Part shown: in pieces, positions 5,763 through 25,394 of the stretch
Layout: every line of letters starts with the position of its first letter
Numbering within the stretch: position 1 is the first letter of the stretch
Origin: a phage
Sequence record: PZ445429.1
Direction: 5' to 3' (one strand)
DNA length: 64,000 bases
Translations under genes and position numbers: made by a program
Notes under the pieces: model-generated
Told to the model about the DNA's origin: nothing
The model's input: only the letters and a program-made list of their open reading frames with translations
Databases searched by the model: none

Positions 5763-6275
5763 ATGCAAATCATCACTGTTGAAGACTACAGACTATATGC
5801 TAATGCAAAGCGACCTGATATGGAAACTCAGGTTGAGATGATGATTAAAGCTGCCAATACGCTGATTACAAGCCTTCTAGGTATGGATGATGCAGATGCG
5901 GTAGATCAATTAATCACTACAAAACCTAGCCGTAGGAAATATTTCCTGAGTTCTCCCTCAGCCACATCTATTACAAAGATGACTATTAACGAGAATGAAA
6001 TAGACCCGGAACAGTTTAAACTGTATCCTGATGGTGTTATTCTCCTTAAGTTTAATCCTCCTGAAGGATATATGGATGTAGAGTATACTCAAGGTGGTTT
6101 CAATCCAATGCCTGAAGATCTTAAACTGGCAGCATGTCTGTTAGTAGATCACTGGCATAAGCAAGATTATCGTCAAGCCAAGACTATTGGTGGTGAGACA
6201 GTTACGTTTAACAATACTAAGTCTGGTATTCCAGAGCATATTCGTACAATCATCGAAGTCTACAGGAGAGTATAA
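5763..6275 (+). CDS. Head completion / head-tail connector protein (T5 p144-like, 170 aa)
   Basis: Position after capsid gene; size; start ATG embedded in conserved ttattgggaaaaacaaATG element. Confidence 0.55.
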   Translation: MQIITVEDYRLYANAKRPDMETQVEMMIKAANTLITSLLGMDDADAVDQLITTKPSRRKYFLSSPSATSITKMTINENEIDPEQFKLYPDGVILLKFNPPEGYMDVEYTQGGFNPMPEDLKLAACLLVDHWHKQDYRQAKTIGGETVTFNNTKSGIPEHIRTIIEVYRRV

Positions 6276-18032: not shown

Positions 18033-20090
18033 ATGATTTCGAATAATGCACCAGCCAAGATGGTCTTAAATAGTATTATGACTGGATATACTATGGCGTA
18101 TATCCAGCATTCTATCTATACCGACTACGATGTTATCGGTAGATCATTCTGGCTTAAACTTGGCGAAGAAGTGGATAGAAGAGATTTCACTGGAATCGAC
18201 ACTTTCTTTGTTATGATCAATAACTTAACTCCCTCAACTACCTATCAGGTTCAGGGAGCTTTTTATGACTCAATTATTGACTCAGAACTTTTAAATGCAA
18301 AAATTGGTATTAACCTCTCTAATGAAACTAACTTTAAAACAAAAGAGAAGCCAATAATTGTTGCAGCAAGATCTGAGTCAGAACCTGTGGATGTTGGGGT
18401 GGGCGCACCAATAGTTGTTGTGGAAACAACTGGTGAAGCAAGCTACTGTACTATTGAGTTAAAAAGTACAGCCACTGAAGACAGTCCATGGACTAAATAT
18501 TATATTGGGGCTTTAGGTTCTACTATTAAATTTGGTGGAGTTCCTATCGGAGATTATAAGATCAGAATATCTGGTCAAGTAACTATGCCTGATGGTGTTA
18601 CAGTTGATTCTTCTGGGTACTATGAGTTCCCTAATATTCTAACTGTAGCTTATAATTTTGTTCCTCCTACTGCACCTATCGATATTGTTTTTAAAGCTGC
18701 ACGAATTGCTGATGGTAAAGAACGATATGATGTTAGAATTGAGTGGGACTGGGAACGTGGTGCTGGTGCTAACGTTCGTGAATTCTTGGTTACTTACATA
18801 AACTCCGAGGAATATGCTAAAACCGGATGGGCTAAAGCTCAAAAGATAAACGTGGGTGCTGCCAGAGCTGCAACAATTATATCATTCCCATGGAAAGTTG
18901 AACATACTTTTAAGGTATCATCAATTGCCTGGGGACCAAGTAAACAAGATATAACAGAGTCAGCTCCTGTAACGTTTATTCTGAATGAAGATACTCCTCT
19001 AGATAATAGTTTTGTCAATGAGACGGGTATTGATGTTAACTATGCCTTTATTAAAGGCAGCATGAAAGATGGGGAAATCTGGAGACAAACATTCCTAATT
19101 GATGCAGCTACTGGTGCTATTAACATTGGTCTGCTAGATGAAGAAGGTAAAGCACCTATTTCTTTTGACCCTATAAACCGTGTTGTTAACGTTGATGGTA
19201 AAGTAATTACTAGAGATATTAATGCTGCGAACTTTATCATGACTAACTTGTCTGGTAAAGATAACCCAGCAATTTACACTCAAGGTAAATCCTGGGGGGA
19301 TAATAACTCTGGTATTTGGATGGGTATGGATAATACCTCTGCCAAAGCTAAGTTAGACATTGGTAATGCTACACAATGGATACGTTATGATGGTACTACT
19401 CTGCGTATTTCTAGTGGTGTAGTGATTGGAACACCAAATGGTGACGTAGATATTGGAACTGGTTTACAAGGTAAGCAAACAGTATTTGTTTATAAGTTAG
19501 CAACATCTTTACCGGCCAAACCGCTAGAACAAGATTATCCACCTCCTGGTTGGTCAAAAACTCCACCTAACCGTACAGATATGACACAAAATATCTATGC
19601 GACTACAGGTACACTTGACCCAGTTACTAACAAACTTCTTGAAGGTACTAGCTGGTCTGATGTAGTTCAATGGAGTGGTACTGAAGGTACTATAGGACAT
19701 GATGGACAGCGTGGTCCTGGGATGTACTCCATGGGTATTCCTGGATTAGGCGGTTGGGATGATGGACAAGCTAACGCATTCTTTCAAAATAACTTTGGAA
19801 AACCTCCGGTTAAATACGATGTTCTAACACAATTTAACAGTAATGCTCCACAAACAGCATTTACCCGTCAGTGGAACGGAGCTGGATGGATTAACCCTGC
19901 AATGGTTCTTCATGGCAATATGATTGTTAATGGAACTGTTACTGCGGATAAGATTGTGGCAGGAAATGCCTTCTTATCACAAATCGGTGTTAATATAATC
20001 TACGATAGAAATGCTGCGTTATCAGGGAACCCTGAAGCATACTACAAGATGAAGATAGACCTAAATAGTGGGTATATCCATATAAGGTAA
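18033..20090 (+). CDS. Central straight fibre protein (T5 pb4-like, 685 aa)
   Basis: Size and position after baseplate hub; Gly/Thr-rich beta-like repeats. Confidence 0.7.
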
Positions 20091-20095
20091 TTATA

Positions 20096-20518
20096 ATGAG
20101 TACAGAAAACCGAGTTATTGATATTGTTGTTGATGAGAAAGTACCTTATGGTCTTATCATGCAGTTTATGGATGTTGATGACAGTGTATATCCACCAACA
20201 GAAGTTCCTGTTAACTTAACCGGATATTCACTCCGAGGAACTATTAAATCTAGTTTAGATGAGAACGCCGAGGTTCTAGCTAACTTTAAAACTCGTGTTA
20301 TTGATGCTGCTCAAGGTGCTGCTGCAATTAGTCTTTCCGTTGCAGACGTTACTAATATTGGTGAAAAAGCATCTAAAGAACGTGATAAGTATAACCCAAG
20401 ACAACGTTTTGCTGGTTATTATGATATCCTAATGACTCGTGATGTAATTGGCTCTGAAGTCAGTTCTTTCCGTATTATGGAAGGTAAAGTATACATCAGC
20501 GATGGAGTAACTCAATAA
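20096..20518 (+). CDS. Tail collar protein (T5 p132-like, 140 aa)
   Basis: Size identical to T5 p132; immediately upstream of lateral fibre gene. Confidence 0.65.
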
Positions 20519-22557
20519 TGGCACTTAAAACTAAAATTATTGTACAGCAGATTCTGAACATAGATGACACTACAACTACTGCTAGTAAGTATCCTAAATA
20601 TACAGTAGTTTTAGGTAACTCTATCAGTTCTATTACTGCGGGTGAACTGACTGCGGCTGTGGAATCATCCGCAGCTTCAGCTGCTGCTGCAAAAGATTCT
20701 GAAATTGCAGCAAAATTATCTGAAACTAACGCTAGAGACTCAGAAAATAGAGCTGCTATTTACGCTGATTCTTCTGAAGCTTCTGCTACTCAAGCAGCTA
20801 CTTCTGCTACGGAATCTGAGAGACAAGCTGGATTATCTAAGGCTAGCGCTGAAGAATCCGCTGCATCTGCTACAGAAGCCGGCACACACAAAGATGCGGC
20901 TCAGTTAGCTGCTCAAAATGCTGAAAGAAGTAGAGAACTAGCCGAACAAGCTAAAACTGCTGCTCAACAAGCTCAAGTAGCCGCTGAAACTGCACAAACT
21001 GGTGCAGAAACTGCTAAAGAAGGAGCCGATGCTGCTGCAACAACTGCTGGTGAGCATGCTGCTGCTGCTAAGCAATCAGAACTAAACGCTAAGATTTCTG
21101 AAACTAATGCTGCTGGTTCTGCTACTGAAGCTGGCGATAAAGCTATCGATGCTACTACTGAGGCAGATCGTGCTAAAGCTGAGGCAGATCGTGCTACTCA
21201 GGTTGTTGATGGTAAACTTGATAAAGTAGATATTTCTGGTTTTATCAAAGTTTATAAGACGAAAGCAGAAGCTGATGCTGATGTTGCAAACCGTGTTCTA
21301 GACGAAAAGGTTCTAGTCTGGAATCAAACTGATTCAAAGTACGGTTGGTATAAAGTTGCTGGTACTGCTGAAGCTCCTGTCCTAGAGTTAGTAGAAACCG
21401 AGCAAAAACTCGTATCAATCAACAACGTTCATGCAGATGATGCAGGTAACGTACAGATTACACTTCCGGGTGGTAACCCTTCTCTATGGTTGGGTGAAGT
21501 TACTTGGTTCCCTTATAACAAGGATTCAGGTGTTGGTTACCCTGGTGTTCTACCTGCTGATGGCCGTGAAGTTCTTCGTGTAGACTATCCAGATACTTGG
21601 GAAGCTATTGAAGCTGGTCTGATTCCTTCTGTTTCAGAAGCTGAATGGCAAGCCGGTGCAACTCTCTACTTCTCCACTGGTGACGGTTCTACCACATTCC
21701 GCCTACCAGATATGATGCAAGGACAGGCATTCCGTGCACCAACTAAAGGCGAAGAAGATGCTGGTGCTATCAAGGAACAGATCCCCTATATCACTACTGT
21801 TAACGGAATCAGTCCTGCTGATGATACTGGTGCTATTAAGCTTCCTTACGTGGCAATGGTTAATGGTACTATTGTACCAGATGAGAATGGAAACCTTGCA
21901 TTAGGTAACGTTGTTACCAAAAATATATGGGATGGGGTTAATGGGGAAGTTCTGCTACGTGGTGCCTTTGGTTTGGGTGGTGCAGGTATTGCGCTAAATG
22001 AACCTAATTTAGTATCCTTCTTCAAGGCTATGCGTGCCTTTGGTTCTGGTTATTATCGTAATGATACAGGTACTGAGGGCCTACCATCATACTCCGCTGG
22101 ATTCTACTCTAAGACTGGTGATACGCACTCCTTTATCTGTCCACAGTACTCAAGTGGTATTGTTTTTGTTGGTACTATTAATGATAATGTACTTGATGGT
22201 GAATCACCTGTGGTACATACTAATATTCTTTATGGTACTGCAAATAAGCCTGATTTAAATAATGATACTCAAGGAATTCTTGGTATTAGTAAAGGTGGTA
22301 CAGGGGCGACGAATGCAGCAGGTGCAAGGGCTAACATAGAATTAGGAGAAACTAATACACCTAGCTTTGCCGAAGTTGCTGCTAGCTTATATAATGGATT
22401 CAATTCTGGTCTGTTATATATGAGGAATCACGATGCTTCTAGAAACTTAATTTCTTATTCCTCTATTTACAACGAACTTCAATCTGGTGTAGCGAAAACA
22501 ACAATAAGGACTACAAACTCAACCACCGATAAAACAGCCTTCTACCAGTTTGACTAA
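20518..22557 (+). CDS. Lateral (L-shaped) tail fibre protein, N-terminal part (LtfA-like), ending at an in-frame TAA
   Basis: Ala-rich heptad coiled-coil N-terminus typical of T5 pb1-type fibres; ends at TAA 22555-22557; the same frame continues open into the next ORF. Confidence 0.7.
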   Translation: MALKTKIIVQQILNIDDTTTTASKYPKYTVVLGNSISSITAGELTAAVESSAASAAAAKDSEIAAKLSETNARDSENRAAIYADSSEASATQAATSATESERQAGLSKASAEESAASATEAGTHKDAAQLAAQNAERSRELAEQAKTAAQQAQVAAETAQTGAETAKEGADAAATTAGEHAAAAKQSELNAKISETNAAGSATEAGDKAIDATTEADRAKAEADRATQVVDGKLDKVDISGFIKVYKTKAEADADVANRVLDEKVLVWNQTDSKYGWYKVAGTAEAPVLELVETEQKLVSINNVHADDAGNVQITLPGGNPSLWLGEVTWFPYNKDSGVGYPGVLPADGREVLRVDYPDTWEAIEAGLIPSVSEAEWQAGATLYFSTGDGSTTFRLPDMMQGQAFRAPTKGEEDAGAIKEQIPYITTVNGISPADDTGAIKLPYVAMVNGTIVPDENGNLALGNVVTKNIWDGVNGEVLLRGAFGLGGAGIALNEPNLVSFFKAMRAFGSGYYRNDTGTEGLPSYSAGFYSKTGDTHSFICPQYSSGIVFVGTINDNVLDGESPVVHTNILYGTANKPDLNNDTQGILGISKGGTGATNAAGARANIELGETNTPSFAEVAASLYNGFNSGLLYMRNHDASRNLISYSSIYNELQSGVAKTTIRTTNSTTDKTAFYQFD

Positions 22558-22611
22558 AATGGTCAATTTAGTGCTCAGAAAATAAAAATTGGTGCTAACT
22601 ACGCTTTTACA

Positions 22612-23580
22612 ATGGAAGGAGGTGAGCGAAACAATCTTGAGCTTTATGCCGGGGCTAGTGTTCCTTTGGATGATTGGGCTAACTTTACTAGGTATAACTG
22701 GTATAATGATATGTCAATATCCGGTGCTGTTAGATCTGGTTCAGACAAGATTAAATGTCATCGTTTAAGAGTTTATAGTCCTAGTATTGATGGGGCGGAC
22801 TTTGATTTCTATCCAACAGGCTACCATAAAGCGCGTGCATTTAATGCTGGCACTGTGGGTAACATTCATGGTTGGGGTATTGAGCAGTACGATAGTGGTA
22901 ATGGAATTCCATTCAATTCAGTGAGTACAACTAACAATAACGCATCATTCAGTCCGGTAGTCGCGGGAGGCACTTCAACTCCAAACGGTTATAACATACG
23001 TTTCGCAATTGGTATGTTGTCCCCGGGCGCCGCTGGATGGTCCAGGACAATACTCAAGCTGCTAGGTGATAACGATAAACATAGAGGATTTGAATTTAAC
23101 GTAGATGGTAGTTTAGGAACATGGGCAAACGCGCCCGGGGATATGTGGGGAGTTGGTTATGATTTTGCAAAAAACCCAACTTCAGACCGTGACTTAAAGA
23201 AAGAAATTATTTACACAGATGGAAAGGAAAGTTATGACCGTGTTATGCAGTGGTTGCCTACTATGTTTAAATATAAGTGGGGCGATACTCAACGTTATGG
23301 TCTTATAGCCCAGGATCTTGCAAAAATAGATCTTCAATATGTAAAAATCGTACCTGGCTCTCCAGTTTTTGAAGACGTAATTGGAGTTGACACGGATGGT
23401 AACGAATATGTGGATCGTCAAATTGAAACCGATAGAGCTGATGACACACTTGCTCTTGATAGTAACGTTATTCTAACGGATATGGCTTGTGCTATGGTGT
23501 ACATGGGTAATAAAATGAATACTTTAGAACAAGAGTTAGAACAACTCAAACAAGTTGTAGCTGCCTTAACTCCAGTATAA
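22612..23580 (+). CDS. Lateral tail fibre C-terminal part with intramolecular chaperone (peptidase S74-like) domain; same frame as upstream fibre ORF
   Basis: C-terminal chaperone signature (DRDLKKEIIY...YGLIAQDL...coiled coil QELEQLKQVVAALT); frame open from 22558; the annotated ATG at 22612 may not be the true start. Confidence 0.6.
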   Translation: MEGGERNNLELYAGASVPLDDWANFTRYNWYNDMSISGAVRSGSDKIKCHRLRVYSPSIDGADFDFYPTGYHKARAFNAGTVGNIHGWGIEQYDSGNGIPFNSVSTTNNNASFSPVVAGGTSTPNGYNIRFAIGMLSPGAAGWSRTILKLLGDNDKHRGFEFNVDGSLGTWANAPGDMWGVGYDFAKNPTSDRDLKKEIIYTDGKESYDRVMQWLPTMFKYKWGDTQRYGLIAQDLAKIDLQYVKIVPGSPVFEDVIGVDTDGNEYVDRQIETDRADDTLALDSNVILTDMACAMVYMGNKMNTLEQELEQLKQVVAALTPV

Positions 23581-23627
23581 AAAAAGTATAATAGGGGGCT
23601 TATGAAAGCCCCTATAAAGGTAATAAA

Positions 23628-25394
23628 ATGTCTAGACAATTAATGCCAAAAAGTGGGGCTATGGCCCCCTATGTTGTTGTTAACAGAGATGCGGCGGTTG
23701 CTGGTGTTTTCTCTGTTGATGGGGAGGCTGGTGCTGTTGTACTAACCTCTAAATATCTACAGCTTACAAAATATACTACTGATAAGACTGCTACTGACGC
23801 ATCTATTAATAGTATTAACGAATCAATAGGTAATATCAATACTGCTATTGGCGGTATTAACACTAACCTAGGTACGAAGGCGGCAAAAGGTGCTAATAAC
23901 GATATTACAGAATTAAACGCACTGACTAAGGCTATTACTATTGCTCAGGGTGGTACAGGTGCTAGCACCTTATTAGAGGCAAAAACAGCTTTACAAATAG
24001 ATCGTTTAAGACAGCAGGATAATGGTACCTTTATTACGTCTCCTGATGGAAAATATTCTTTATTCGTTTATAATAGCGGAGACTTTGGATTAATCAATAG
24101 TTCTACCGCTGCCGTCCAGGCCATGAAAGTGCAGTTCGGTGGAACAGGGGCTTCTGATGCTAAAACAGCAAGAAAAAATCTAGATGTTCCTGTAGGGGCT
24201 ACTGCTGTACCTATTCCTCCTAACAGTAATGTTCTTGGTTTTATTGGTGCTACCGGGCAAAGTGGTTACTACTCTTCAGGTAACCTAATTACCTTTGGTC
24301 CTCCAGTAGACGAGGATTGGTGGACTTTTAATTTTCACTGTCATAGTACAGATATTGATGGCTTCGCCCAATACGGTATATTGAAGGCGGTAGGAAAATC
24401 TGGAAGCTCATGGCTTACTATACTAAACGGTACTGGTAACTGGTTGCCGTGGCAAAAACAATTTAACGGTCAGTCTACCGTTCCTATTACAAATGGAGGG
24501 ACAGGAGCTACTACAGTGGCTAAGGCAAGAGAGAATCTCTTAGTAGACCAGGTAGATAGAGCGGGGGAACAATCAATGCTTTGGGCTCCGGATAAAGATA
24601 CCTATTTCTTTGTATATGCTGCAGGAGATTGGGGTGTCTACGATAAGTCTGCTGCTATTAGAAAACCTCTACCTATTGCTTCGGGAGGTACAGGAGGTAC
24701 AGATGTTAATACTGCCCGTAATAACTTATCTCTTGGCACACGTCAGCAAGTAATTTTCGACTCAGTATACCTGCCTGACTATAAAGGAGGGGATTGGTCG
24801 TATGGTTATGGTTGTAAAATTAATGGGGGTGCTCTATCTAGTTGGTCTTCTAGGCCTGTAGCTGTTAGCGTAGATGGTAACACTACTGATGTAGCTGTAG
24901 GTATTGCCAAAGTAACTATTCCTGGAAAGGGATACGCTTGTAACGTTGATGGTATCCTATGGGGGGATGGCACTTCTGAACTGGATATAATGACAGGTGC
25001 TTCCAGATTCTATTTCCATAGTGATGGGGGAGCTAGAGCATCTAACTGGATTAACGTTTCTGATATTAGAACTAAGTCTAATCTTACTAAGATCGAAGAT
25101 TCTCTAAGTAAGGTTAAGCTGTTATGCGGCTATACTTACCAGAAACGAACTAATATTGATGACCCTGAAAGCAAAGATTATTCTATGGAAGCAGGTATTA
25201 TTGCTCAGGATCTCCAGAAAGTATTACCTGAAGCTGTATACCAAGTAAGCCAAGACGGTTATCTTGGTGTTAGTTATGGTGGTGTTTCTGCTCTTCTAGT
25301 TAGCGCTGTTAACGAACTTAATGGGATTGTTGAGCAACAGAGGCAAGAAATTGATGAACTCAAGGAATTAGTAAAACAACTACTCACTAAGTAA
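23628..25394 (+). CDS. Second lateral tail fibre protein (LtfB-like, 588 aa) with C-terminal intramolecular chaperone domain
   Basis: Repeated GGTGA(T/S) fibre motifs; C-terminal chaperone signature (IRTKSNLTKIED...YSMEAGIIAQDL...EIDELKELVKQLL). Confidence 0.7.
   Translation: MSRQLMPKSGAMAPYVVVNRDAAVAGVFSVDGEAGAVVLTSKYLQLTKYTTDKTATDASINSINESIGNINTAIGGINTNLGTKAAKGANNDITELNALTKAITIAQGGTGASTLLEAKTALQIDRLRQQDNGTFITSPDGKYSLFVYNSGDFGLINSSTAAVQAMKVQFGGTGASDAKTARKNLDVPVGATAVPIPPNSNVLGFIGATGQSGYYSSGNLITFGPPVDEDWWTFNFHCHSTDIDGFAQYGILKAVGKSGSSWLTILNGTGNWLPWQKQFNGQSTVPITNGGTGATTVAKARENLLVDQVDRAGEQSMLWAPDKDTYFFVYAAGDWGVYDKSAAIRKPLPIASGGTGGTDVNTARNNLSLGTRQQVIFDSVYLPDYKGGDWSYGYGCKINGGALSSWSSRPVAVSVDGNTTDVAVGIAKVTIPGKGYACNVDGILWGDGTSELDIMTGASRFYFHSDGGARASNWINVSDIRTKSNLTKIEDSLSKVKLLCGYTYQKRTNIDDPESKDYSMEAGIIAQDLQKVLPEAVYQVSQDGYLGVSYGGVSALLVSAVNELNGIVEQQRQEIDELKELVKQLLTK

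What the first reader, a model, noticed from the sequence alone, without database searches (positions are those of the whole stretch)
20518..23580. A single in-frame TAA (22555-22557) splits the large lateral tail-fibre gene
The 679-aa fibre ORF ends ...AFYQFD at TAA 22555-22557, and the next ORF (annotated start 22612) is in the same frame. The 54 nt between them read through without a stop (NGQFSAQKIKIGANYAFTMEGGER...). The downstream part carries the C-terminal intramolecular-chaperone domain, which in fibre proteins normally acts in cis on the shaft encoded upstream; the upstream part has none. A fused product would be about 1019 aa. This looks like one fibre gene interrupted by an ochre codon: a nonsense mutation, programmed readthrough, a sequencing or assembly error, or a genuinely novel split fibre.
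Basis: partly seen in the sequence, partly recalled or inferred. Interest (0 to 1): 0.75.

Follow-up and report, generated by a model that had tools for sequence, protein, structure and literature searches.

The report
Nonsense mutation in phage tail-fibre gene
One G-to-T change has put a stop codon in the middle of the lateral tail-fibre gene ltfA of the T5-like coliphage IrmaTschudi (Bas28); this is the ordinary fibre-loss mutation seen when such phages are grown on laboratory E. coli without O-antigen, not a new kind of split fibre.

Summary
ORF 20518-22557 (679 aa) ends at TAA 22555-22557. The 54 nt after it have no stop, and ORF 22612-23580 (322 aa, carrying the Peptidase_S74 chaperone domain) is in the same frame.

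The window is Escherichia phage IrmaTschudi (BASEL Bas28, MZ501076), an Epseptimavirus with a DT57C-type branched fibre locus (ltfC, ltfA, ltfB).

Every relative checked has one uninterrupted ltfA of 1019-1020 codons with GAA (Glu) where the window has TAA. These are Ace, EH7, EscoHU1, LVR16A, EH4 and Klebsiella phage 150049. A 115-kb T5-like contig also has GAA there, though its own ltf gene carries a separate frameshift.

From 22297 to 25394 the window differs from phage Ace at only four bases, one of which is this G-to-T. Nothing has decayed downstream, so the lesion is very recent. ATG 22612 has no Shine-Dalgarno sequence. TAA is the phage's usual stop codon. No suppressor tRNA was found in the window or in Ace. 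Of 65 Ace genes with a full-length counterpart in the window, ltfA is the only broken one.

Bas28 was isolated and plaque-purified on O-antigen-free K-12. Fibres are dispensable on such hosts and are known to be lost often.

Verdict: a real but ordinary loss-of-function allele (E680ochre), annotated in GenBank as two proteins. Low interest, apart from a caveat for users of Bas28.

The parts
20096..20518 (+). ltfC, the 140-aa collar protein that anchors the lateral fibres (context; intact)
   Evidence: Pfam PF23926 LtfC, E 1.9e-15. 100% identical to the Ace orthologue.
20518..23580 (+). Whole ltfA gene (1020 codons) carrying the E680ochre nonsense allele
   Evidence: Aligns without gaps to single 3060-3063-nt CDSs in Ace, EH7, EscoHU1, LVR16A, EH4 and Kp 150049. 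Residues 1-458 match DT57C LtfA, PDB 8hqz_d, E 4e-244.
20518..22557 (+). 5' part of ltfA, annotated as the 679-aa 'lateral tail fiber protein' QXV80373.1. It holds the LtfC-binding N-terminus, the coiled coil, the LtfB-docking region and part of the distal shaft.
   Evidence: No Pfam domain found.
21184..21891 (+). Codons 223-458, the region corresponding to the proposed LtfB-docking region of DT57C LtfA (phiEco32 gp14-like). It lies upstream of the stop and is retained.
   Evidence: Alignment to 8hqz_d residues 1-456, and to 7z47_D 'Putative tail fiber' over query residues 230-442, E 1.7e-44. The docking region is defined as aa 223-471 in PMC4728585.
22555..22557 (+). Ochre codon TAA at codon 680. 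G-to-T at 22555 relative to GAA (Glu) in all relatives.
   Evidence: Alignment A1, codon table and L007. It is the only window-private change in the last 1.26 kb of the gene.
22558..22611 (+). Codons 681-698 of ltfA, which looks like a 54-nt spacer only because of the stop
   Evidence: Identical in Ace and EH7, where it is coding. No stop.
22612..23580 (+). 3' part of ltfA, annotated as the separate 322-aa 'tail fiber protein' QXV80374.1. It holds the distal receptor-binding tip and the chaperone, and is probably untranslated.
   Evidence: It sits in the same 90% cluster as the 1020-aa proteins of EH7 and EH1. No SD before ATG 22612: duplex energy +0.9 kcal/mol against -3.9 to -5.9 for four neighbouring genes.
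23182..23577 (+). Predicted intramolecular chaperone, residues 889-1020. The autocleavage motif is NPT|SDRDLK (Ser889, Lys894).
   Evidence: Peptidase_S74 hit. The motif position and S/D/R/D/K columns are invariant across 19 homologues. The fold match to T5 pb1 plus chaperone, 4uw8, is weak: E 5e-4, TM 0.25, on a model of mean pLDDT 60.6.
23628..25394 (+). ltfB, the 588-aa branch fibre that needs LtfA for attachment (intact)
   Evidence: Peptidase_S74, E 2.6e-12. 99.7% identical to the Ace orthologue. Over the first 127 aa queried it is 90% identical to DT57C ltfB (71% covered); residues 1-45 are 71% identical to a phiEco32 tail fibre.

Best explanation
ltfA of phage IrmaTschudi (Bas28) carries a recent spontaneous nonsense mutation, G-to-T at 22555 (GAA Glu680 to TAA).

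Translation should stop at codon 680 and release a 679-residue fragment. That fragment keeps the LtfC-binding N-terminus, the trimeric coiled coil and the LtfB-docking region. It lacks the last ~209 residues of the mature fibre (the receptor-binding tip) and the 132-residue C-terminal intramolecular chaperone, which normally folds the distal fibre in cis and then cleaves itself off at Ser889. The 322-aa 'gene' downstream is the untranslated 3' third of ltfA, not a gene of its own.

The phage therefore lacks a functional LtfA receptor-binding arm, and possibly the whole branched fibre, since LtfB rides on LtfA. This costs nothing on the O-antigen-free K-12 host used to isolate and plaque-purify it. 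Lateral fibres are dispensable on such hosts and their loss is frequent and possibly advantageous.

Shown: the lesion, its uniqueness among relatives, its recency, and the absence of restart or readthrough signals. Inferred: that the mutation is real rather than a consensus error, that it was fixed during or because of growth on K-12, and its effect on the virion.
For: - All relatives have one intact ORF with GAA at this codon: six phage records and a T5-like contig, L007. EH1 also encodes a 1020-aa protein.
- From 22297 to 25394 (3.1 kb) the window differs from Ace at only 4 bases. Downstream of the stop there is no window-private change; G759 is shared with EH7. dN/dS is 0.08-0.14 on both sides of the stop against more distant relatives. 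The 3' part was therefore under purifying selection until very recently.
- ATG 22612 has no SD (+0.9 kcal/mol).
- TAA ends 40 of 53 long ORFs in the window, 15 of them as TAA-A.
- There is no tRNA in the window and no anticodon-TTA tRNA among the 29 tRNAs of Ace.
- ltfA is the only one of 65 Ace genes with a full-length counterpart in the window that is interrupted.
- Reported coverage is 203x. The isolation host was E. coli K-12 MG1655 deltaRM, with at least 3 single-plaque passages. The authors state that lateral fibres are not essential on K-12 (PMC8594841).
- About 30% of DT571/2 clones grown on K-12 C600 spontaneously lost fibre-dependent infectivity, and LtfA is required for LtfB function (PMC4728585).
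- Bas28 lysed none of the five smooth strains tested and did not plate on K-12 wbbL(+).
Against: - No reads, virion proteomics or micrographs of Bas28 were available, so neither the base call nor the fibre-less phenotype is directly verified.
- The host-range data are not diagnostic. Bas27 and Bas30 show the same pattern.
- The mutation could already have existed in the sewage population rather than arising in the laboratory.
- The tRNA set of IrmaTschudi itself lies outside the window and was checked only by proxy in Ace.
Confidence: 0.85

Rival explanations
1. Sequencing or consensus error. The phage really has GAA, and the deposited T at 22555 is an artefact.
For: It is a single-base substitution and the rest of the gene is intact. 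G-to-T is a known oxidative-damage artefact of library preparation (general knowledge). No independent assembly of this allele exists in the protein collection: the cluster has 1 member on 1 contig.
Against: Reported coverage is 203x, and the site is not in a homopolymer. All 64 other comparable genes are intact, so the assembly is otherwise clean. A random error would have to land in ltfA (about 2.7% of the genome) and also create a stop. A real mutation in a gene dispensable on the isolation host is expected a priori.
Confidence: 0.08
2. A functional two-polypeptide fibre. The 322-aa C-terminal part is translated separately, by reinitiation at ATG 22612 or TTG 22666, and joins or chaperones the 679-aa part in trans.
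For: An in-frame ATG lies 54 nt after the stop. TTG 22666 has a moderate SD-like stretch (-5.0 kcal/mol). Small siphoviruses do encode separate 358-425-aa distal subunits carrying this receptor-binding plus chaperone module (L010, L011).
Against: ATG 22612 has no SD. The natural separate subunits carry an extra ~40-100-residue N-terminal adaptor that the 322-aa ORF lacks. The break lies 87 codons inside the module that begins at the GGTGAT motif (codon 593), not at its boundary. No relative has this arrangement. Some short 'homologues' are gene-calling or frameshift artefacts.
Confidence: 0.03
3. Programmed readthrough or suppression of the ochre codon, by a phage suppressor tRNA or a leaky context, gives full-length LtfA at a regulated level.
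For: T5-like phages carry many tRNA genes (28 reported for IrmaTschudi), and those of IrmaTschudi itself were not inspected. The reading frame is perfectly preserved downstream.
Against: The stop is not conserved: relatives have GAA. TAA is the least leaky stop codon in E. coli (general knowledge) and is the phage's own main terminator, at 40 of 53 long ORFs. There is no tRNA in the window. Ace, at 95-99% identity over the regions compared, has 29 tRNAs and none with anticodon TTA. Preservation of the frame is explained by how recent the mutation is.
Confidence: 0.02

Closest known systems
Branched lateral tail fibres LtfA/LtfB/LtfC of T5-like phages DT57C and DT571/2 (Golomidova et al. 2016, PMC4728585; Ayala et al. 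2023, PMC10713586, PDB 8hqz)
   Same: The gene order is the same: ltfC, ltfA, ltfB. LtfA residues 1-458 are almost identical to DT57C LtfA. The start of LtfB matches DT57C ltfB and a phiEco32 fibre. Both fibre proteins end in a Peptidase_S74 chaperone.
   Different: The distal third of LtfA is a different receptor-binding module, shared with Ace, EH7 and EscoHU1 but not with DT57C. In the window, ltfA is cut by a stop at codon 680.
Spontaneous fibre-less or fibre-defective mutants of T5-like phages grown on rough hosts: the classical T5 hd mutants (general knowledge) and DT57C/DT571/2 mutants on E. coli C600 (PMC4728585)
   Same: The lesion inactivates the lateral fibre gene in a phage propagated on O-antigen-free K-12. 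The phage plates normally on K-12 and on rough E. coli B, and not on the smooth strains tested.
   Different: The published examples are a 1-codon deletion (delta-A198), engineered ambers and ltfA-ltfB fusion deletions. Here it is a spontaneous ochre at codon 680 that leaves the LtfB-docking region in place. The fibre phenotype of Bas28 has not been examined.
Intact ltfA of Escherichia phage vB_EcoS_Ace (MT833283.1, QNR52187.1, 1020 aa)
   Same: It has the same length and order. The gene is 95.3% identical overall and 99.87% identical over the last 3.1 kb of the locus, including ltfB.
   Different: Ace has GAA at codon 680, so it makes one 1020-aa protein. Codons 34-57 and 402-593 are mosaic-divergent between the two phages.
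Separately encoded distal lateral-fibre subunits of small siphoviruses (e.g. loci L010 and L011; described for Drexlerviridae and others in PMC8594841)
   Same: They carry a homologous receptor-binding tip plus chaperone module, 47-51% identical over 98-99% of the 322-aa part.
   Different: Those are real genes of 358-425 aa with their own N-terminal extension, each sitting as a discrete called gene next to other tail genes. The window's 322-aa ORF is only the tail end of a longer gene.

Membership tests
DT57C-type branched lateral tail fibre locus (ltfC-ltfA-ltfB) | LtfC collar gene immediately upstream of ltfA | tested here: met
   PF23926 LtfC, E 1.9e-15, at 20096-20518.
DT57C-type branched lateral tail fibre locus (ltfC-ltfA-ltfB) | LtfA N-terminus, coiled coil and gp14-like LtfB-docking region homologous to DT57C LtfA | tested here: met
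   Residues 1-458 against 8hqz_d residues 1-456, E 4e-244. Residues 230-442 against 7z47_D, E 1.7e-44.
DT57C-type branched lateral tail fibre locus (ltfC-ltfA-ltfB) | Second fibre gene ltfB whose N-terminal ~45 aa match DT57C LtfB and phiEco32 gp15 | tested here: met
   tblastn with the first 127 aa: 90% identity to DT57C ltfB (71% covered); residues 1-45 are 71% identical to a phiEco32 tail fibre.
DT57C-type branched lateral tail fibre locus (ltfC-ltfA-ltfB) | Both fibre proteins end in an autocleavable Peptidase_S74 chaperone on the same polypeptide as the shaft | tested here: not met
   LtfB meets it. For LtfA the domain is present but is separated from the shaft by TAA 22555-22557. The locus is therefore a member carrying a defective ltfA allele.
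Loss-of-function (fibre-less type) mutants of T5-like phages on rough hosts | Inactivating lesion within the lateral fibre gene that is absent from wild relatives | tested here: met
   GAA to TAA, private to the window.
Loss-of-function (fibre-less type) mutants of T5-like phages on rough hosts | Propagation history on an O-antigen-free host, where fibres are dispensable | tested here: met
   Isolation and at least 3 plaque passages on K-12 MG1655 deltaRM. The paper states the fibres are not essential on K-12 (PMC8594841).
Loss-of-function (fibre-less type) mutants of T5-like phages on rough hosts | Virions lack functional lateral fibres, or fibre-dependent host range is lost | tested here: inconclusive
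   Bas28 lysed none of the five smooth strains tested and did not plate on K-12 wbbL(+). Bas27 and Bas30 behave the same way. No electron microscopy or proteomics was available.
Programmed stop-codon readthrough or suppressor-tRNA recoding | The in-frame stop is conserved among relatives | tested here: not met
   All seven relatives examined at the DNA level have GAA.
Programmed stop-codon readthrough or suppressor-tRNA recoding | A cognate suppressor tRNA or a leaky stop context | tested here: not met
   No tRNA in the window. None of the 29 tRNAs of Ace has anticodon TTA. The context is TAA-A, which also ends 15 ordinary long ORFs in the window. The tRNA genes of IrmaTschudi outside the window were not inspected.
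Naturally split lateral fibre with a separate distal receptor-binding subunit | The downstream gene has its own ribosome-binding site and an N-terminal adaptor, and the gene boundary is shared by relatives | tested here: not met
   SD energy is +0.9 kcal/mol. The ORF starts 106 codons inside the exchangeable module, with no extra N-terminal domain. Relatives have a single contiguous gene.

The most novel reading that the evidence does not exclude
The 679-residue LtfA stub may still trimerise through its N-terminal coiled coil, insert into the LtfC collar and carry LtfB on its retained docking region. Bas28 virions would then bear short fibres displaying only the LtfB receptor-binding tip. This would be a natural demonstration that the proximal two-thirds of an LtfA fibre can assemble without its C-terminal chaperone, and a one-step route from two receptor specificities to one.
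Probability: 0.2. Interest if true: 0.3.

Novelty: new member of a known kind. Interest (0 to 1): 0.15.

Why it matters
The biology is ordinary. Lateral fibre genes of T5-like phages are known to break when the phages are grown on rough laboratory hosts.

The value is practical. Bas28 belongs to the widely distributed BASEL reference collection, and GenBank lists the two halves of ltfA as separate fibre proteins with no pseudogene flag. Anyone using Bas28 for host-range, O-antigen, adsorption or receptor-binding-protein studies should know that it probably lacks a working LtfA tip. The same applies to anyone using its 679-aa and 322-aa entries as training data for fibre prediction, because the 322-aa entry is not a natural protein. 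Changing one base back (T22555G) should restore the wild-type fibre.

The case also shows that short 'stand-alone' receptor-binding plus chaperone proteins in databases can be remnants of broken or miscalled genes.

Tried and rejected
- **Suppressor tRNA.** ARAGORN on the window found no tRNA. The 29 annotated tRNAs of Ace include none with anticodon TTA.
- **Independent translation of the 322-aa ORF.** There is no SD at ATG 22612, and the other in-frame starts are weak or are TTG.
- **Stand-alone homologues as evidence for a natural split.**
  - P0005 is the 3' part of a frameshifted ltf gene.
  - P0007 is a miscalled part of an intact 836-aa ORF.
  - P0008 and P0013 are true distal subunits of unrelated small siphoviruses and carry extra N-terminal residues.
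- **The same allele elsewhere.** Junction-pattern scans of viral, metagenome and genome contigs found nothing. They add no further sense or stop examples.
- **The IrmaTschudi record itself.** MZ501076 is not in the phage collection, so the rest of the genome and its tRNAs could not be read.
- **Sequence search of the C-terminal 340 aa against PDB.** No hit.
- **Monomer AlphaFold model of the C-terminal 340 aa.** Confidence was low (pLDDT 60.6). Its top Foldseek hit, T5 pb1 plus chaperone (4uw8), is weak (TM 0.25) and is used only as a hint.
- **Literature.** No paper mentions the Bas28 fibre defect: 'IrmaTschudi' appears in 1 unrelated paper, and 'Bas28' with 'tail fiber' in none.
Full report
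**1.

Reading the window directly confirms the coordinates. An ORF runs from ATG 20518 to TAA 22555-22557 (679 aa, ending ...TAFYQFD). The next 54 nt translate in the same frame as NGQFSAQKIKIGANYAFT with no stop. ATG 22612 continues that frame for 322 codons to TAA 23578-23580. A product without the stop would be 1020 aa.

Pfam finds the Peptidase_S74 'chaperone of endosialidase' domain only in the downstream part (residues 191-239 of 322, E 6.6e-7) and nothing in the upstream part. Eighteen stop-free codons are not remarkable on their own (P about 0.18). A same-frame stop-free run of 340 codons is (P about 8e-15).

**2. What the sequence is.**

An exact-sequence look-up identifies both products as proteins of Escherichia phage IrmaTschudi: QXV80373.1, 'lateral tail fiber protein', 679 aa, and QXV80374.1, 'tail fiber protein', 322 aa. 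The 322-aa protein falls in the same 90% cluster as the 1020-aa proteins of Salmonella phages EH7 and EH1.

IrmaTschudi is Bas28 of the BASEL collection (MZ501076, 115,446 bp, 203x coverage, from sewage inflow in Basel; nearest relative phage Ace). It is an Epseptimavirus, that is, a T5-like phage.

The locus is a DT57C-type branched lateral fibre:
- ltfC lies at 20096-20518 (PF23926).
- ltfA lies at 20518-23580. Its first 458 residues are almost identical to DT57C LtfA (PDB 8hqz_d, E 4e-244). Residues 230-442 match a 786-aa 'Putative tail fiber' (7z47_D, E 1.7e-44).
- ltfB lies at 23628-25394. The first 127 aa are 90% identical to DT57C ltfB (71% covered), and residues 1-45 are 71% identical to a phiEco32 tail fibre. 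It has its own Peptidase_S74 domain.

**3. Relatives have one gene and a glutamate codon.**

Megablast of 20518-23580 finds 12 phage records covering at least 80% of the query. In the six distinct ones I fetched, the region is a single annotated CDS of 3060-3063 nt whose only stop is the terminal one. These are Ace (95.3% identity), EH7 (89%), EscoHU1, LVR16A and EH4 (84%), and Klebsiella phage 150049 (82%). EscoHU1 names the two genes 'L-shaped tail fiber protein A' and 'B'.

At the codon that is TAA in the window, all six have GAA. So does a T5-like 115-kb contig, L007. The lesion is therefore a single G-to-T transversion at 22555, Glu680 to ochre.

**4. The lesion is very recent.**

Between 22297 and 25394 (3.1 kb, covering the last third of ltfA, the spacer and all of ltfB) the window differs from Ace at only four positions: 22555, 22793, 23803 and 24850. 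At 22793 the window's Gly759 is shared with EH7, so that change is private to Ace. Downstream of the stop the window therefore has no private change at all.

Against more distant relatives, dN/dS is 0.08-0.14 both upstream and downstream of the stop. The 3' part thus evolved as coding sequence until essentially the present.

Elsewhere in the gene, the window and Ace differ in two mosaic patches (codons 34-57 and 402-593), mostly at synonymous sites. The 3' boundary of the second patch falls at the GGTGAT...AR.N..LG motif at codon 593. That boundary lies where many records stop matching the query. The stop lies 87 codons inside that distal module, not at a module boundary.

**5. No sign of a second gene or of recoding.**

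- **Ribosome binding.** The 17 nt before ATG 22612 pair with the anti-SD at +0.9 kcal/mol. The four neighbouring real starts score -3.9 to -5.9, and the background mean is -1.6. The GGAGG in this stretch lies after the ATG and serves no in-frame start.
- **Stop-codon usage.** TAA ends 40 of the 53 long ORFs in the window, 15 of them in the same TAA-A context. General ochre suppression would be harmful to the phage.
- **tRNAs.** ARAGORN finds no tRNA in the window. None of the 29 annotated tRNAs of Ace has anticodon TTA.

**6. Short 'stand-alone' homologues do not rescue the split-fibre idea.**

A search with the 322-aa part returned proteins of 358-429 aa covering 98-100% of it. Three kinds emerged on inspection:
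- P0005 (389 aa) is the 3' piece of an ltf gene broken by a +1 T in a T-run, in a T-like genome inside an assembly labelled Brucella melitensis.
- P0007 (424 aa) is a gene-calling artefact within an intact 836-aa ltf ORF.
- P0008 and P0013 are genuine distal fibre subunits of unrelated small siphoviruses. P0013 sits downstream of a 706-aa phage_tail_N protein, and both carry extra N-terminal residues that the window's 322-aa ORF lacks.

Scans of viral, metagenomic and genomic contigs for the junction sequence found nothing.

**7. What is lost.**

The conserved motif NPT-SDRDLK puts the predicted autocleavage serine at residue 889, with the lysine at 894. These columns are invariant across 19 homologues. 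The Ser/Lys spacing matches what I recall for T5 pb1; that comparison is from general knowledge and was not tested here.

The mature LtfA would be residues 1-888 and the chaperone residues 889-1020. Stopping at 680 removes about 209 residues of the distal tip and the whole chaperone.

A monomer AlphaFold model of residues 681-1020 had low confidence (pLDDT 60.6). Its best PDB match was the T5 fibre tip with its chaperone (4uw8: E 5e-4, probability 0.95, TM only 0.25), which I treat as a weak hint.

The stub retains the region corresponding to the DT57C LtfB-docking region, aa 223-471. From general knowledge of Peptidase_S74 fibres, such as endosialidases and T5 pb1, the distal beta-structure does not fold without the C-terminal chaperone. 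Whether the coiled-coil stub still assembles and carries LtfB is open.

**8. Why such a mutant is expected.**

BASEL phages were isolated by direct plating and purified through at least three single plaques on E. coli K-12 MG1655 deltaRM. The authors state that binding of T5-like lateral fibres to O-antigen is not essential on K-12, which has no O-antigen barrier (PMC8594841).

[quoted passage not shown] The authors concluded that fibre-less mutants arise at a high rate or have a selective advantage there, and that LtfA is required for LtfB function (PMC4728585).

Bas28 plates on K-12 and on E. coli B REL606. It lysed none of UTI89, CFT073, 55989 or two Salmonella Typhimurium strains, and did not plate on K-12 wbbL(+). 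This fits a fibre defect but is not diagnostic, because Bas27 and Bas30 show the same pattern.

**9. Real mutation or consensus error?**

Of 65 annotated Ace proteins that have a full-length counterpart in the window, 64 are intact. Only LtfA contains a stop or frame change. The assembly is therefore clean, and the single broken gene is one known to be dispensable and frequently lost on the isolation host.

With 203x coverage and a site outside any homopolymer, a true mutation is much more likely than an error. Only reads or Sanger sequencing can settle it. My estimates are:

| Reading | Probability |
|---|---|
| Real nonsense allele | 0.85 |
| Consensus error | 0.08 |
| Functional split | 0.03 |
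| Readthrough or suppression | 0.02 |

**10. Comparison with what is known, and verdict.**

The locus is a member of the DT57C-type branched fibre family in every feature tested, except that its ltfA reading frame is interrupted. The lesion is another instance of the well-known loss of lateral fibres in T5-like phages on rough hosts. I found no paper that mentions it for Bas28, and GenBank presents the halves as two proteins.

It is a real feature of the deposited sequence. It is ordinary in kind and of practical rather than conceptual interest. The most novel reading not excluded is that the stub still mounts LtfB, giving a single-specificity short fibre (probability about 0.2).

Noticed in passing
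L007:4197-7170 (GCA_921447385.1, contig CAKLGN010000012.1, 115,269 bp): A complete T5-like phage genome sits in an assembly labelled Brucella melitensis. Its single ltf gene is also broken, into 608-aa and 389-aa ORFs, by an extra T in a T-run near 5992-6002. This is a second, independent disrupted lateral fibre gene, or a homopolymer sequencing error.
   Followed up: partly
L008:334-2844 (GCA_008211965.1, Salmonella enterica assembly, 106,949-bp contig): An intact 836-aa Ltf ORF is recorded in the protein collection only as its 424-aa C-terminal part. Some short 'stand-alone' receptor-binding plus chaperone proteins in databases are therefore gene-calling artefacts.
   Followed up: yes
window 20617-20688 and 21721-22296 (ltfA codons 34-57 and 402-593): ltfA is mosaic relative to phage Ace. 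Two patches carry dense, mostly synonymous divergence and are flanked by near-identical sequence. The 3' boundary falls at the GGTGAT...AR.N..LG motif (codon 593), which looks like the recombination joint for exchanging distal fibre modules.
   Followed up: partly
window, region syntenic with Ace 59.0-60.3 kb (around the Sir2-like gene) and Ace 44.4-44.9 kb: Ace proteins Ace_0107 and Ace_0109 and a homing endonuclease (Ace_0087) have no counterpart above 60% identity in the window. This is small accessory-gene turnover between otherwise 98-99% identical genomes.
   Followed up: no
window 18033-20090: The mechanical ORF list gives 685 aa for the pb4 central fibre gene, as in LVR16A. Ace, EscoHU1 and EH4 annotate 665 aa from a later start, and EH7 annotates 670 aa. 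The true start is ambiguous.
   Followed up: no
phage records PQ773600.1, MG065642.1: T5-like sequences with this fibre locus are deposited as 'Corynebacterium phage CPphiVTCCBPA_418' and 'Campylobacter phage A148'. These host labels are implausible for Epseptimavirus-like genomes and probably reflect contamination or mislabelling.
   Followed up: no
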